Assembly: GCF_013315695.1 (NCBI RefSeq)
Contig: NZ_CP054353.1
Origin: Escherichia coli
GTDB taxonomy: Bacteria > Pseudomonadota > Gammaproteobacteria > Enterobacterales > Enterobacteriaceae
DNA length: 64,000 nt
Direction: 5' to 3' (one strand)
Positions 21,001 to 24,000 of this stretch are shown piece by piece. Every line of letters starts with the position of its first letter. Position 1 is the first letter of the stretch. The position numbers were made by a program.

Positions 21001-24000
21001 TTGTTAAATCTGGAATCTCTCTGGTACAGTTTCCCGATGGTATTGATTTTGGCGATGGGAATACTGCCTATATAACCATTGGCATTGCCGGAAAAGAAGG
21101 CGAACACTTGGATCTGTTAAATAAGATCGCCTTAATTTGTATTGACGAAGATAATGTTAAAGCATTGCGTAACGCTAAAACCATTGAACAGGTTTTACAA
21201 GTACTCAACATCTAAGATATACTCATTATTCTATGAATAAAATGAGTATGTTACGATGAAAGCTGCCAGACAAGACATTATCCTTCAAATACTTGAGAAA
21301 GAGAAAAAGATTGTTGCCAGTAAATTAAGTGAGCGTCTTAAGGTTTCTGAAGACACCATAAGACGCGACTTAAATGAACTGGCTAACCAGGGGTTAATTC
21401 GTCGGGTTCATAGCGGCGCGATTCGTGTGGGGCCTGCCATTACCGACTTTAACGTCAGGCAAGATCTGAATATTAATGAGAAGGTTAAGCTTGCAAAGAA
21501 AGCAGTACATTTAATTAAAGAAAATAGCGTCATTTTAATTGATGGAGGAACAACTAATTACGAATTAGTAAAGCTGATCCCTAAAGATTTAAAGTGTACG
21601 GTTGTCTCCAATAACATACCTATTCTGCATCTTTTAAGTGATTATCAGAATGTAGAGGTCATTGGTCTTGGTGGTCGCCTGTATAAAAACTCTTTAGTGT
21701 TGATTGGCGCAGAGACTATTCGCGAACTTGAGGCAATTCGCCCTGATATTTATTTCATGGGTGTTGCGCATGTTGATAGCGAAGTGGGTGTTACCATTCC
21801 TGGTCTAGATGAGTGCTATACCAAACAAAAAATGGCTCAAGTCTCAAATGAAGTTGCCATCCTCGTAACAGAGGAAAAACTTGAGACGCGTTCTAATTTC
21901 GTCGTGTCCTCACTCAAGGATATTAACTATATATTTACGAGTAAGGACATCTAAAAACATGAGGTATTTTAATGAAACGCGTATTAATTATCGGCGCTGG
22001 CCGCCTTGGTAAAGGTTTTGTTGGAGAAACTTTTGATAACGCAGGCTGGAATATTACTTTCCTTGATAAAGATCCACGAGTTATTGATGAATTAAATCGT
22101 CATAATAAATATACCGTTCAGGTATTCCGCACCGATGATATCATCATGCATGAGGTAACCAATTTTCGTGCCTTTGCTACAGATGATAACTACTCCGTAA
22201 TGAATGACTTCCTGGAATCTTCCGTTATTATGTGTCCGCTATATCCGGAAGATTTTGAAGAGTCTGCGCGTTATCTCGGAAAATGCTTTGAACAGCAGTT
22301 TAAAGTTGACCCTGATAAAAAAATGACGCTCATTTGCCTGACCAATAAAAATCATATTATTAAAGACATCGAAGCCTGGTATCGCAATGCCATTCCTTCA
22401 GCGCAGGCGCGAGACTGGTTTGATTCCCATGTCGCCATTCGTGACTCGATCGTCAGACGTTCAACCGATGCCGAAACGCATTACGCAACGCAGATCGATA
22501 GCACCGCTGTCGCCTCCTTATTGATTCAAACCCCGCTGTACAATGACATTAGCGACGTGGAATGGCTGGAGCCACGCGATCATCTGGAAATGCTTAAAGA
22601 CATTAAAGTCTTTACCATCAATGGCCCACACGCCACCACTGCTTATTACGGACACCTGAAAGGTTATAACACCATTCCGGATGCCTCCGCAGACCCGGAA
22701 GTAGCCGCATTAGCCAATGCGGTACACGACGTCACCATCAAGGCGGTGATGACAGAATATCCGCAAATCACCCGTGAAGCCCTTACGGACCTGGAATATT
22801 TGCCGAAAGCCAAGAACGAGCTCCCCGACTCAATCCATCGCGTCGCCTATGATCCCGTGCGCAAATTAGCCTTTAAAGACCGCTTAATGGGCGTGGTGCA
22901 GCTTTGCCTGAAATACAATCTTGATTATTCACCGCTAACCAAAGCCATCGCCTGTGGCCTCGCTTACTATGCCGAAGACGACCGCGCTTCTGTAAATCTG
23001 CAACAGCAGATGCAGAAAAAGGGCTTGCTGACGACAACCGCGCAAATTATCGGTTTGCCGAAAGATCATCCCGTCACGCTAAATGTTGCACAACAATATT
23101 TAGCGTTGGATGCTGAAAATTTAATTCCAGCCATACCGTGTTAATTATGATGTCTGAATCAACATGCTGTGCGAATTTTATTATTAAAAATGAACATGGT
23201 ATTCATGCCCGACCTGGTGCGTACATTGTGAATCTTTTAAAACCGTTTAACTGTGCGGTGAAAATTGCCAACCTGTCACGCAATGATCATTACGTTAATG
23301 CAAAAAGTCTTATGGCATTAATGTCGCTGGGAATAAAAAACGGGCATGAAGTCAGTGTTATTTTTGATGGTAAAGACGCACAAAGCGCATTACAAAAGCT
23401 GAGCGCTGAAATTGAAAACGGCTTAGGTGAATAGGCCTTATCTGCTGGCGCTTATTACTTAATAAGCGCTCTAATATTAAGGATTGATGATTATGATTAC
23501 CACAGCAATATTCCCTGGAAGATATATTCAGGGGGCGGGAGCTATTGAGCAATGTTTAGGTGAGGAGTTATCCCGTTTTGGCAACAAGGCAATGATTGTG
23601 GAAGATCCGGTAGTTAATCAAACCATCGGCGGCAAAATTGCCGACGCGCTAAACGAAGATTTTACTTACGAGCTGGAAATTTTTAATCGCGAATGCTGCG
23701 ATGAAGAAATTGAACGAATCTGCAAATGCACGCAGGCCTGTGGCGCGAAGATGATTGTGGGTATCGGCGGCGGCAAAACGCTGGACACCGCCAAGGCCGT
23801 CGGTGCTACTCTTAATTTGCCGATCATCGTCATCCCTACGCTGGCGTCTACCGATGCGCCATGCAGCTCGCTGGTTGTCATTTACACGGCGCAGGGTCAG
23901 TTCAAACGTTATATGATGATCCCCCATAACCCGTCCCTTGTTTTCATCGACTCGCAGGTGGTAGCCAATGCGCCGGTGCGTTTCCTGCTCTCGGGTATCG

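What the first reader, a model, noticed from the sequence alone, without database searches (positions are those of the whole stretch)
23138..23434. Island-encoded private HPr paralogue
A dedicated HPr-like protein inside a sugar-specific PTS operon is uncommon in E. coli, where general PtsH serves most systems (FruB-type fusions excepted). A free-standing HPr paralogue suggests insulated phosphotransfer or a regulatory role. Its gene overlaps the preceding dehydrogenase gene by 7 bp, implying translational coupling.
Basis: partly seen in the sequence, partly recalled or inferred. Interest (0 to 1): 0.4.

Follow-up and report, generated by a model that had tools for sequence, protein, structure and literature searches.

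The report
Unfused FruB-type HPr in rare PTS locus
A rare E. coli sugar-alcohol uptake gene cluster carries its own small, intact, conserved phosphate-carrier protein (HPr), which looks like the carrier half of the fructose protein FruB made as a separate protein; this is an uncharacterised but fairly ordinary variation on a well-known system.

Summary
The gene is real. It encodes a 95-aa HPr-family protein (Pfam PF00381, E=1.4e-25; AlphaFold pLDDT 94.8; TM 0.85-0.94 to solved HPrs). The His-Ala-Arg-Pro active site is intact, and dN/dS is 0.19 between the two E. coli alleles.

The start conserved in Salmonella is ATG 23147, not GTG 23138. The gene therefore sits 2 nt after the upstream stop rather than overlapping it by 7 nt. 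No Shine-Dalgarno sequence is visible, so translational coupling remains plausible.

The protein is not a copy of PtsH. Its nearest relatives are the C-terminal HPr domains of FruB/FPr (40% identity, against 35% to PtsH). The cluster's EIIA is likewise closest to the FruB IIA domain (42%). The locus thus carries a FruB-like IIA and FPr as two separate genes, attached to a mannitol-family EIICB and polyol-phosphate enzymes.

The 8.9-kb cluster lies between dtpB and rsmJ in 16 of 5426 complete E. coli genomes. It occupies the same site in Salmonella enterica and Superficieibacter, and a compact EIIA-HPr version exists in Yersinia.

Most likely function: the EI-to-EIIA phosphocarrier for this PTS. 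Whether it is required or insulated from PtsH is untested. RefSeq already annotates the gene, and I found no study of it. Interest is modest.

The parts
23147..23434 (+). Free-standing FPr-type HPr gene (95 aa plus stop). The active site is His20 in GIHARPG, equivalent to His15 of PtsH. The Ser46-equivalent is Ser54 in NAKSL. The C-terminus is GLGE.
   Evidence: PF00381 E=1.4e-25. The best NCBIfam local match is the FruB HPr domain, profile positions 283-374. PGAP uses the same coordinates. AlphaFold pLDDT is 94.8 with a beta-alpha-beta-beta-alpha-beta-alpha fold, and TM is 0.85/0.94 to HPr 3lnw. dN/dS is 0.19.
23138..23146 (+). It is probably not translated as part of HPr.
   Evidence: The GTG is absent at the aligned position in Salmonella, whereas ATG 23147 is conserved. 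Orthologue N-termini begin at the ATG.
21972..23144 (+). Mannitol-dehydrogenase-family gene (MtlD-like, 390 aa). Its TAA stop lies 2 nt before the HPr ATG.
   Evidence: PF01232 and PF08125. Matches to mannitol-1-phosphate 5-dehydrogenase models are all below the equivalog cutoffs. Junction sequence.
20787..21215 (+). EIIA (PTS_EIIA_2) with the phosphorylation motif NGLAIPHGT. It is closest to the N-terminal IIA domain of FruB.
   Evidence: PF00359 E=3e-34. The FruB model NF008319 gives 132 bits over profile positions 5-139. It is 42% identical to K-12 FruB residues 4-139. Sequence.
19324..20790 (+). Mannitol-family EIICB, with the IIB cysteine motif VACDSGMGSSAMG.
   Evidence: PF02378 and PF02302. 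The MtlA IICBA model gives 506 bits, below its 589 cutoff. PGAP coordinates.
18487..19296 (+). SDR annotated as sorbitol-6-phosphate dehydrogenase subunit; first gene of the cluster.
   Evidence: NF004817 gives 360 bits against a cutoff of 304. PGAP annotation.
21256..21954 (+). DeoR/GlpR-family regulator with no PRD domain.
   Evidence: PF08220 and PF00455.
23447..23470 (+). 10-bp hairpin (GCGCTTATTA/TAATAAGCGC) without a T-run, between HPr and gldA. It may be a remnant of, or a weak replacement for, the operon-end terminator seen after HPr in Superficieibacter.
   Evidence: RNA fold of 23430-23495: MFE -17 kcal/mol, z=-2.3. Superficieibacter has a stem followed by a T-run after HPr. The terminator scan did not call this hairpin.
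23493..24584 (+). Glycerol-dehydrogenase-family gene (GldA-like). It is present in the E. coli and Salmonella clusters only.
   Evidence: NF006941 gives 504 bits against a cutoff of 336. It is absent from the Superficieibacter and Yersinia clusters.
24637..24707 (.). REP-like inverted repeat between the convergent gldA and HAD genes.
   Evidence: Inverted repeat I1: 18-nt arms, 94% complementary. It probably accounts for the short megablast matches found in nearly all E. coli genomes; the individual matches were not inspected.
24749..25399 (-). HAD-family sugar/hexitol phosphatase (HxpB-like).
   Evidence: NF008087 gives 188.8 bits against a cutoff of 191. PF13419.
25480..26037 (-). SIS-domain 6-phospho-3-hexuloisomerase-like gene (HxlB).
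   Evidence: TIGR03127 gives 172 bits against a cutoff of 160.
26034..26744 (-). Ribulose-phosphate 3-epimerase family gene (Rpe/AlsE-like).
   Evidence: PF00834 E=3e-50. It falls below the equivalog cutoffs for both rpe and alsE.
18095..27019 (.). The whole accessory cluster (8.9 kb). It replaces the roughly 58-bp stretch that separates the two blocks of homology at the dtpB/rsmJ junction in K-12 (their intergenic spacer is 48 bp).
   Evidence: BLASTN of the K-12 region against the window: homology stops at window 18094 and resumes at 27020. K-12 annotation.

Best explanation
The gene encodes a functional, free-standing HPr of the FruB/FPr type. It most likely acts as the phosphocarrier of this accessory polyol PTS. 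The general Enzyme I would phosphorylate it on His20. It would pass the phosphoryl group to the cluster's FruB-like EIIA (His in NGLAIPHGT), then to the IIB cysteine of the mannitol-family EIICB, and finally to the incoming sugar alcohol. The locus therefore carries a FruB-like IIA and FPr as two separate proteins.

HPr synthesis is probably tied to the upstream dehydrogenase gene by termination-reinitiation (TAA, 2 nt, ATG, no Shine-Dalgarno).

Shown here: family, fold, intact phosphorylation motifs in HPr, EIIA and IIB, purifying selection, conserved linkage to EII genes across genera, and the FPr-like affinity. Inferred: EI as donor, the cluster EIIA as acceptor, and translational coupling. 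Unknown: the substrate, and whether PtsH can substitute.
For: Family and fold:
- PF00381 E=1.4e-25.
- AlphaFold pLDDT 94.8, with His20 just before helix 1 (residues 21-31).
- TM 0.85-0.94 and rmsd about 1 A to solved HPrs.

FPr affinity:
- The FruB model NF008319 scores 105 bits over its HPr domain. TIGR01003 scores 80, the PtsH model 36 and the NPr model 36.
- BLASTP identity is 40% (84 bits) to K-12 FruB 282-374, against 35% (48 bits) to PtsH.
- The protein shares FruB's 3-residue loop insertion and GLGE C-terminus, both absent from PtsH.
- In the exhaustive HMMER search, many of the best hits outside its own clade are ~376-aa proteins matched over a C-terminal HPr domain.
- The NJ tree places it among FruB-type domains.

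Partner and relay:
- The cluster EIIA is 42% identical to the FruB IIA domain.
- In Yersinia the order is EIIA-HPr, as in FruB.
- The phosphorelay motifs in EIIA and the IIB domain are present.

Selection and conservation:
- dN/dS is 0.19 between the E. coli alleles.
- The ORF is intact in the window and in one genome of each divergent allele group (L007, and L008 despite its short annotation).
- Orthologues sit next to EII genes in Salmonella, Superficieibacter and Yersinia.

Coupling: stop and start are 2 nt apart in E. coli and Salmonella and overlap by 11 nt in Superficieibacter, and no Shine-Dalgarno is visible in E. coli.
Against: - No experiment or expression data is available.
- Nearly all E. 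coli carry ptsH and fruB, so the carrier could be redundant. From general knowledge, E. coli IIA(Mtl) is served by PtsH.
- HPr is the fastest-evolving protein of the cluster: 71% identity between E. coli and Salmonella, against 82-90% for its neighbours.
- Tree support for the FPr placement is only moderate. Island plus FruB excluded NPr and DhaM, with the tree rooted on PtsH, in 38 of 60 NJ bootstraps on 93 columns.
- The Lys49-equivalent of helix 2 is Ala or Ser in this clade. This could change partner preference in either direction.
Confidence: 0.6

Rival explanations
1. Redundant or vestigial carrier. The protein can still be phosphorylated, but PtsH (or FruB) serves the cluster's EIIA equally well. 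The gene would then be a dispensable leftover of a FruB-like ancestor that travels with the cluster.
For: ptsH is in 5425 and fruB in 5417 of 5426 E. coli genomes. HPr is the least conserved protein of the cluster. From general knowledge, mannitol-family EIIA domains in E. coli normally use PtsH.
Against: dN/dS is 0.19, so selection is not neutral. The ORF is intact in every genome inspected. The gene is retained in four genera despite rearrangement of the cluster. A related free-standing HPr is also kept in a different, mannose-family PTS cluster.
Confidence: 0.22
2. Regulatory HPr. The protein's phosphorylation state reports PTS flux to a non-PTS partner. Candidates are the adjacent mannitol-dehydrogenase-family enzyme and the DeoR regulator. 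Known analogues are HPr binding to FruR, glycogen phosphorylase and Rsd.
For: The order Mannitol_dh then HPr recurs in two clusters with unrelated EII families: mannitol-family and mannose-family. Solved complexes of HPr with FruR (7x7h), glycogen phosphorylase (9s8k) and Rsd (4xwj) appeared among the structural matches, so such roles exist for HPr proteins.
Against: The Yersinia cluster has no Mannitol_dh gene and places HPr directly after EIIA. The regulator has no PRD domain that HPr could phosphorylate. No feature of the sequence departs from a catalytic carrier.
Confidence: 0.12
3. Phosphoryl donor for a dihydroxyacetone route. HPr would work with the neighbouring glycerol dehydrogenase, as the HPr domain of DhaM does with DhaKL.
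For: gldA lies immediately downstream. DhaM contains an HPr domain.
Against: The cluster has no DhaK or DhaL gene. Superficieibacter and Yersinia keep HPr but lack gldA. The protein matches DhaM poorly: 29% identity, and 46 bits against a cutoff of 520.
Confidence: 0.03

Closest known systems
FruB / FPr (diphosphoryl transfer protein, IIA(Fru)-M-HPr) of E. coli and Salmonella
   Same: It is the closest characterised relative of both the HPr (40% identity to residues 282-374) and the cluster EIIA (42% to residues 4-139). The HPr shares FruB's loop insertion and GLGE C-terminus. Like FruB, it is a sugar-specific HPr-type carrier encoded with its own EII genes. FPr domains form a supported monophyletic group in Enterobacteriaceae, Pasteurellaceae and Vibrionaceae (PMC2405797).
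   Different: Here IIA and HPr are separate genes and there is no M domain. In E. coli they are even separated by two other genes. The permease is a mannitol-family EIICB rather than FruA. There is no 1-phosphofructokinase; the catabolic genes are polyol-phosphate dehydrogenases, an HxlB-like isomerase and an epimerase. The full-length FruB equivalog cutoff is not met (105 against 302 bits).
PtsH (general HPr) of E. coli
   Same: Same family, size class and fold. The active-site His-x-Arg-Pro and the Ser46 region are the same. Both are free-standing.
   Different: Identity is only 35%. The PtsH equivalog model scores 35.7 bits against a cutoff of 153. PtsH lacks the 3-residue loop insertion and the GLGE tail. 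It is encoded with ptsI-crr and is nearly universal (5425 of 5426 genomes), whereas this gene is in 16 of 5426.
NPr (PtsO) and the HPr domain of DhaM
   Same: They are other E. coli HPr paralogues with dedicated partners. K-12 has six HPr-encoding paralogues (PMC2405797).
   Different: Both are more distant: 32% and 29% identity, with NCBIfam scores far below cutoff. They fall outside the FruB-type grouping in the tree. Their genomic contexts differ (rpoN operon; dhaKLM).
Free-standing FPr-like HPr in a mannose-family PTS cluster of E. coli/Salmonella (P0203/P0022)
   Same: It is a 96-aa free-standing HPr, 51% identical, that groups near the island clade in the NJ tree. It also follows a Mannitol_dh-family gene and an SDR, and a DeoR regulator is present.
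   Different: The EII is of the mannose/sorbose family (IIA-man, IIB, IIC, IID). In one contig it is flanked by IS, resolvase and DotM-type conjugation genes, a plasmid-like context.
ptsH inside deoR-fruK-fruA-ptsH operons of Actinobacteria
   Same: This is a precedent for an HPr gene embedded in a sugar-specific PTS operon (PMC2405797).
   Different: In those organisms that HPr may be the main or only carrier. Here it is additional to PtsH, NPr and FruB.

Membership tests
HPr family (PF00381 / TIGR01003) | Sequence profile match above the curated cutoff | tested here: met
   PF00381 gives 89.5 bits against 23. TIGR01003 gives 80.1 bits against 47.9.
HPr family (PF00381 / TIGR01003) | Active-site histidine in a G-x-H-x-R-P motif at the N-terminus of helix 1 | tested here: met
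   G18-I-H20-A-R22-P23 aligns with His15/Arg17 of PtsH. G, H and R are invariant in the 43-sequence alignment. Helix 1 starts at residue 21 in the model.
HPr family (PF00381 / TIGR01003) | Open-faced beta-sandwich fold (beta-alpha-beta-beta-alpha-beta-alpha) | tested here: met
   AlphaFold pLDDT is 94.8, with elements E6-12, H21-31, E37-42, H55-60, E68-74, H78-90. Foldseek finds 40 HPr, Crh and NPr chains at E<=1e-3, with TM up to 0.86/0.94.
HPr family (PF00381 / TIGR01003) | Phosphorylation by Enzyme I and transfer to an EIIA | not testable with these tools
   This needs a biochemical assay.
FruB / FPr (fused IIA(Fru)-M-HPr, NF008319) | HPr domain most similar to FruB C-terminal domains | tested here: met
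   NF008319 is the best NCBIfam local match: 105 bits over profile positions 283-374. Identity to K-12 FruB is 40%, against 35% to PtsH. The loop insertion and GLGE end are shared. Many of the nearest library hits are ~376-aa proteins matched over a C-terminal HPr domain.
FruB / FPr (fused IIA(Fru)-M-HPr, NF008319) | Phylogenetic placement inside the FPr clade | tested here: inconclusive
   The NJ tree nests it among FruB-type domains. Island plus FruB excluded NPr and DhaM, with the tree rooted on PtsH, in only 38 of 60 bootstraps on 93 columns.
FruB / FPr (fused IIA(Fru)-M-HPr, NF008319) | Fused IIA-M-HPr architecture; full-length equivalog score | tested here: not met
   The protein is 95 aa with a single domain. 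It scores 105 bits against a cutoff of 302. EIIA is a separate gene, and there is no M domain.
FruB / FPr (fused IIA(Fru)-M-HPr, NF008319) | Linkage to fruK (1-phosphofructokinase) and fruA | tested here: not met
   The cluster has a mannitol-family EIICB and no pfkB-type kinase.
PtsH orthologue (NF008104) | Equivalog score; ptsH-ptsI-crr context | tested here: not met
   It scores 35.7 bits against 153. The context is a polyol PTS cluster.
NPr (NF008146) | Equivalog score; rpoN-operon context | tested here: not met
   It scores 36.3 bits against 119. The context differs.
Horizontally acquired genomic island | Patchy distribution | tested here: met
   It is in 16 of 5426 complete E. coli genomes. 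GC is lower in parts: 38-42% against about 50% in the flanks.
Horizontally acquired genomic island | Mobility genes, tRNA or att-type boundaries, a variable site between species | tested here: not met
   No integrase or transposase is annotated in the cluster. It sits at the same uspA/dtpB-rsmJ site in Salmonella and Superficieibacter. The right half diverges about 4% between the E. coli alleles, like the flanking core genes. Flanking direct repeats and tRNA genes were not searched for.

The most novel reading that the evidence does not exclude
The unfused FPr-type HPr is a true private carrier. In this reading the cluster's FruB-like EIIA accepts phosphate efficiently only from it and not from PtsH. 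This polyol PTS would then draw directly on EI and escape competition for HPr~P, and with it the sugar hierarchy and catabolite control tied to PtsH. Alternatively or in addition, its phosphorylation state could control the adjacent mannitol-dehydrogenase-family enzyme. That would explain why the Mannitol_dh-HPr gene pair recurs in clusters with unrelated EII families.
Probability: 0.2. Interest if true: 0.45.

Novelty: new member of a known kind. Interest (0 to 1): 0.27.

Why it matters
If the carrier is truly dedicated, this locus would be a simple natural case of a PTS branch insulated at the HPr level in an organism that already has PtsH, NPr and FruB. It could be used to study how specificity between HPr paralogues and EIIA proteins is encoded. 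It also shows a FruB-like IIA and FPr existing as separate genes, which bears on how multiphosphoryl transfer proteins arose or broke apart.

In practical terms, the cluster is a rare accessory sugar-alcohol pathway with an unknown substrate. It is found in a few E. coli lineages, E. albertii, Salmonella enterica (including subsp. diarizonae), Superficieibacter and Yersinia. If the carrier is merely redundant, the finding is routine accessory-genome content.

Tried and rejected
- **GTG 23138 as the start, with a 7-nt overlap.** Rejected. The GTG is not conserved in Salmonella, orthologue N-termini start at the ATG, and PGAP uses ATG 23147.
- **Gene decay in some E. coli strains.** Short annotated forms of 83, 69 and 67 aa appeared in the protein search. 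The 69-aa case (L008) has a fully intact 95-aa ORF and is only an annotation choice. The 83-aa forms begin one residue into the same sequence, which looks like another start-codon choice; I did not check their DNA. One 67-aa form (P0014) does look frameshifted and was not pursued.
- **A link to glycerol dehydrogenase and dihydroxyacetone kinase.** Rejected. There is no DhaK or DhaL gene, and clusters without gldA keep HPr.
- **Plasmid origin.** tblastn against 72,556 plasmids found no copy of this protein. The best hits were fruB genes at 40-50% identity. One E. coli plasmid carries a 241-aa HPr-domain protein in a tagatose-type cluster, which is a different thing.
- **Literature.** Searches by protein accession, by gene-content keywords and for Salmonella diarizonae found no paper on this cluster. 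A search for GimA/ptnP, which I recalled as another island-encoded HPr homologue in E. coli, returned only unrelated papers, so I do not rely on it.
- **Promoter and terminator scan.** It gave no more promoter-like sites than shuffled sequence: 13 against 15.7 expected. It was not informative about operon structure. The only notable site is a terminator-like stem between hxlB and the HAD gene.
- **Substrate prediction.** I considered several hexitol routes (oxidation to a 3-hexulose-6-P or allulose-6-P, then HxlB or epimerase to fructose-6-P). Nothing in the data discriminates between them, so no substrate is claimed.
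Full report

The window has an ORF at 23138..23434 on the + strand if read from the first possible start, a GTG. Its product is clearly an HPr-family protein. Pfam PF00381 scores 89.5 bits against a gathering cutoff of 23, E=1.4e-25. TIGR01003 scores 80 bits against a cutoff of 48.

The upstream gene (21972..23144) belongs to the mannitol-dehydrogenase family and ends with TAA at 23142-23144. The reported 7-nt overlap depends entirely on the GTG being the start. Three results argue against that:
- Orthologues from Salmonella, Superficieibacter and Yersinia have N-termini that line up with the ATG at 23147.
- The Salmonella junction reads ...CAGCTTTAAttATG..., which keeps this ATG but has no GTG at the aligned upstream position.
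- RefSeq/PGAP starts the gene at the same ATG, giving 95 aa (WP_001330103.1).

With that start there is a 2-nt gap between the stop and the ATG. None of the candidate starts is preceded by a recognisable Shine-Dalgarno sequence. In Superficieibacter the two genes overlap by 11 nt. Close stop/start juxtaposition is therefore conserved, and translational coupling by termination-reinitiation remains a reasonable inference. The specific overlap is not supported.

**2. Is it a working gene?**

- The active-site motif G-I-H20-A-R-P-G aligns with His15/Arg17 of PtsH, and N-A-K-S54-L aligns with the Ser46 region.
- Gly18, His20 and Arg22 are invariant in a 43-sequence alignment.
- An AlphaFold model built on that alignment has mean pLDDT 94.8. 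It shows the beta-alpha-beta-beta-alpha-beta-alpha order of HPr, with His20 immediately before helix 1.
- The model superposes on solved HPr structures with TM 0.85/0.94 and about 1 A rmsd. The 40 best PDB matches are all HPr, Crh or NPr chains.
- Two E. coli alleles exist, in 6 and 10 of the complete genomes. They differ in this gene with dN/dS = 0.19.
- The ORF is intact in both other genomes I inspected (L007 and L008). In L008 the annotation gives only 69 aa, but the full 95-aa frame is open.
- It is nevertheless the fastest-evolving protein of the cluster: 71% identity between E. coli and Salmonella, against 82-90% for its neighbours.

**3. What kind of HPr is it?**

It is not a recent copy of ptsH.
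- Among NCBIfam models, the best local match is the HPr domain (positions 283-374) of the fused fructose protein FruB/FPr, at 105 bits. The PtsH and NPr equivalog models each score about 36 bits.
- By BLASTP it is 40% identical (84 bits) to K-12 FruB residues 282-374, 35% (48 bits) to PtsH, 32% to NPr and 29% to the DhaM HPr domain.
- It shares two features with FruB that PtsH lacks: a three-residue insertion in the loop after strand 2, and the C-terminal GLGE.
- An exhaustive HMMER search of 1.84 billion representative proteins found only four hits at E<=1e-30. One is the Salmonella orthologue, and the other three are multi-HPr-domain FPr-like proteins. Many of the following hits are ~376-aa proteins matched over their C-terminal ~90 residues, which is the FruB architecture.
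- A neighbour-joining tree nests a small clade among these FruB-type domains. The clade holds E. coli, Salmonella, Superficieibacter and Yersinia sequences plus two others. PtsH, NPr and DhaM fall elsewhere.
- Support for this is only moderate. In 60 bootstrap replicates on 93 columns, the island clade was monophyletic in 39. Island plus FruB excluded NPr and DhaM, with the tree rooted on PtsH, in 38.
- A published analysis found FPr domains of Enterobacteriaceae, Pasteurellaceae and Vibrionaceae to be a supported monophyletic group in an otherwise poorly resolved HPr tree. It also counts six HPr-encoding paralogues in E. coli K-12 (PMC2405797).

**4. The partner EIIA points the same way.**

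The cluster's EIIA (20787..21215) matches the N-terminal IIA domain of FruB best: 132 bits over profile positions 5-139, and 42% identity to K-12 FruB residues 4-139. It keeps the NGLAIPHGT phosphorylation motif. In Yersinia alsatica the cluster is compact and ordered EIIA-HPr-epimerase-SIS-SDR-EIICB. EIIA and HPr are adjacent there, in the same order as the domains of FruB. The simplest description is a FruB-like IIA and FPr encoded as separate proteins, without the middle (M) domain. I cannot say whether this arose by fission of a FruB-like gene or represents an unfused relative.

**5. The surroundings.**

The cluster spans window 18095-27019. It replaces the short dtpB-rsmJ junction of K-12, where the intergenic spacer is 48 bp.

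On the + strand it encodes, in order:
- an SDR annotated as sorbitol-6-phosphate dehydrogenase subunit;
- a mannitol-family EIICB, with the IIB motif VACDSGMGSSAMG;
- the EIIA;
- a DeoR/GlpR regulator;
- the Mannitol_dh-family enzyme;
- HPr;
- a glycerol-dehydrogenase-family enzyme.

On the - strand it encodes an HxpB-like HAD phosphatase, an HxlB-like 6-phospho-3-hexuloisomerase and an Rpe/AlsE-like epimerase.

No mobility genes are annotated. Several of the enzymes fall below the equivalog cutoffs of their nearest models. The substrate is therefore unknown; a sugar alcohol converted to fructose-6-phosphate is a reasonable guess, but I make no specific claim.

**6. Distribution.**

- The HPr gene and the cluster are in 16 of 5426 complete E. 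coli genomes, always on the chromosome. By contrast, ptsH is in 5425 and fruB in 5417.
- Source names for members of the protein cluster also include Escherichia albertii. Names in the Salmonella cluster include S. enterica subsp. diarizonae, where one sequence was seen on at least 1000 contigs.
- In Salmonella enterica and in Superficieibacter the cluster lies at the same chromosomal site, between uspA/dtpB and rsmJ.
- Between the two E. coli alleles, the right half of the cluster diverges by about 4%, similar to the flanking core genes. The left half is almost identical, at about 0.3%. The switch falls at the dehydrogenase/HPr junction.
- Taken together, an old locus lost from most E. coli lineages and reshuffled by homologous recombination fits at least as well as a recently imported island.
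- gldA is present only in the E. coli and Salmonella clusters. In Superficieibacter, HPr is the last gene and is followed by a clear stem plus T-run terminator. In E. coli a 10-bp hairpin without a T-run occupies the HPr-gldA spacer.

**7. How it most likely works.**

All phosphorelay sites are present: His20 in HPr, the His of EIIA and the Cys of the IIB domain. HPr is always linked to EII genes. The best-supported reading is therefore an ordinary carrier step: PEP to Enzyme I, to this HPr, to the cluster EIIA, to IIB, to substrate. My confidence is about 0.6. Family, fold, motifs, selection and linkage are shown. The donor, the acceptor and the coupling to the upstream gene are inferred.

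Whether the carrier is needed is open. The helix-2 position equivalent to Lys49 of PtsH, which is also Lys in FruB, is Ala or Ser in this clade. This could affect partner choice, but that is speculation.

The rivals are:
- A redundant or vestigial carrier (about 0.2). The universal presence of PtsH and FruB and the faster evolution of this gene favour it. Purifying selection and retention across genera count against it.
- A regulatory role towards the adjacent dehydrogenase or the DeoR protein (about 0.1). The recurrence of the Mannitol_dh-HPr gene pair in a second, mannose-family PTS cluster of E. coli/Salmonella hints at it. The Yersinia cluster, which lacks that dehydrogenase, and the absence of a PRD domain weaken it.
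- A DhaM-like role with gldA, which gene content essentially excludes.

**8. Comparison with known systems and novelty.**

The protein is a member of the HPr family; every testable defining feature was met. It works like, and is most similar to, the FPr domain of FruB. It fails the architectural definition of FruB (no fusion, no M domain, no fruK or fruA linkage), so I do not file it as FruB. It is not an orthologue of PtsH or NPr.

RefSeq already labels it 'HPr family phosphocarrier protein', and some sources call relatives 'fructose-specific IIA/FPr component'. Its existence is therefore not new. I found no publication on the cluster.

Private HPr-type carriers in sugar-specific loci have precedents. 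Examples are FruB itself, actinobacterial deoR-fruK-fruA-ptsH operons (PMC2405797), the mannose-family cluster noted above, and an HPr-domain protein in a plasmid tagatose-type cluster.

I rate it a new member of a known kind, with interest about 0.27. A specialist would not be very surprised. The locus is, however, a clean system for asking how HPr paralogues are kept apart.

Noticed in passing
L014 and L015, gene at 6001-6279 of each: A 92-aa free-standing FPr-like HPr (P0036) lies on a 154-kb metagenome scaffold of 25-29% GC. Its neighbours are many small same-strand ORFs with no Pfam hits. One neighbour matches phrog_15275 (E=2e-38). This is possibly a large phage carrying an HPr as an auxiliary gene.
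   Followed up: partly
L013 (6052-6342), L017 (10001-10291), L018 (5851-6141): A second type of free-standing FPr-like HPr (51% identical) occurs in E. coli and Salmonella. It sits in a mannose/sorbose-family PTS cluster (IIA-man, IIB, IIC, IID) with an SDR, a Mannitol_dh-family gene and a DeoR regulator. In L018 the cluster is flanked by IS, resolvase and DotM-type genes, a plasmid-like context. The gene order Mannitol_dh then HPr is the same as in the window.
   Followed up: partly
window 18100-26600, compared with L007: The two E. coli alleles of the cluster are about 0.3% divergent from 18100 to 23100 and about 4% divergent from the start of HPr to about 26600. This looks like a recombination breakpoint at the dehydrogenase/HPr junction. 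EIICB, EIIA and DeoR have identical protein accessions in both alleles, whereas HPr and GldA differ.
   Followed up: partly
window 24637-24707: A REP-like inverted repeat (ACGCCTTATCCGGCCTAC / GTAGGCCTGATAAGGCGT) lies between the convergent gldA and HAD genes. It probably explains why a megablast of the region returned short matches in 5425 of 5426 E. coli genomes.
   Followed up: no
window 23447-23470; L005 about 10290-10340: In Superficieibacter, HPr ends the operon and is followed by a clear intrinsic terminator. In E. coli and Salmonella a gldA-family gene has been added after HPr. The E. coli spacer holds only a 10-bp hairpin without a T-run (MFE of the folded 66-nt stretch -17 kcal/mol, z -2.3).
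   Followed up: partly
window 25423-25456, - strand: A strong terminator-like stem (15 pairs followed by CTTTTTT) lies between the hxlB-like gene and the HAD phosphatase gene. The phosphatase may therefore be transcribed separately from the epimerase-hxlB pair.
   Followed up: no
window 18080-18100 and 27000-27020: The 3' ends of dtpB and rsmJ differ from K-12 at the cluster boundaries. For example, dtpB ends ...AGCCATAGCTAG here and ...AGCCATTAA in K-12. The K-12 dtpB-rsmJ spacer and its hairpin are replaced.
   Followed up: partly
L019 7605-8330 (plasmid NZ_CP080166.1): An IncK2/Z conjugative E. coli plasmid from chicken carries a 241-aa HPr-domain protein in a tagatose/fructose-type cluster with pfkB, lacD, a DeoR regulator and a sugar kinase. 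This is another accessory PTS locus with its own HPr-type carrier.
   Followed up: no
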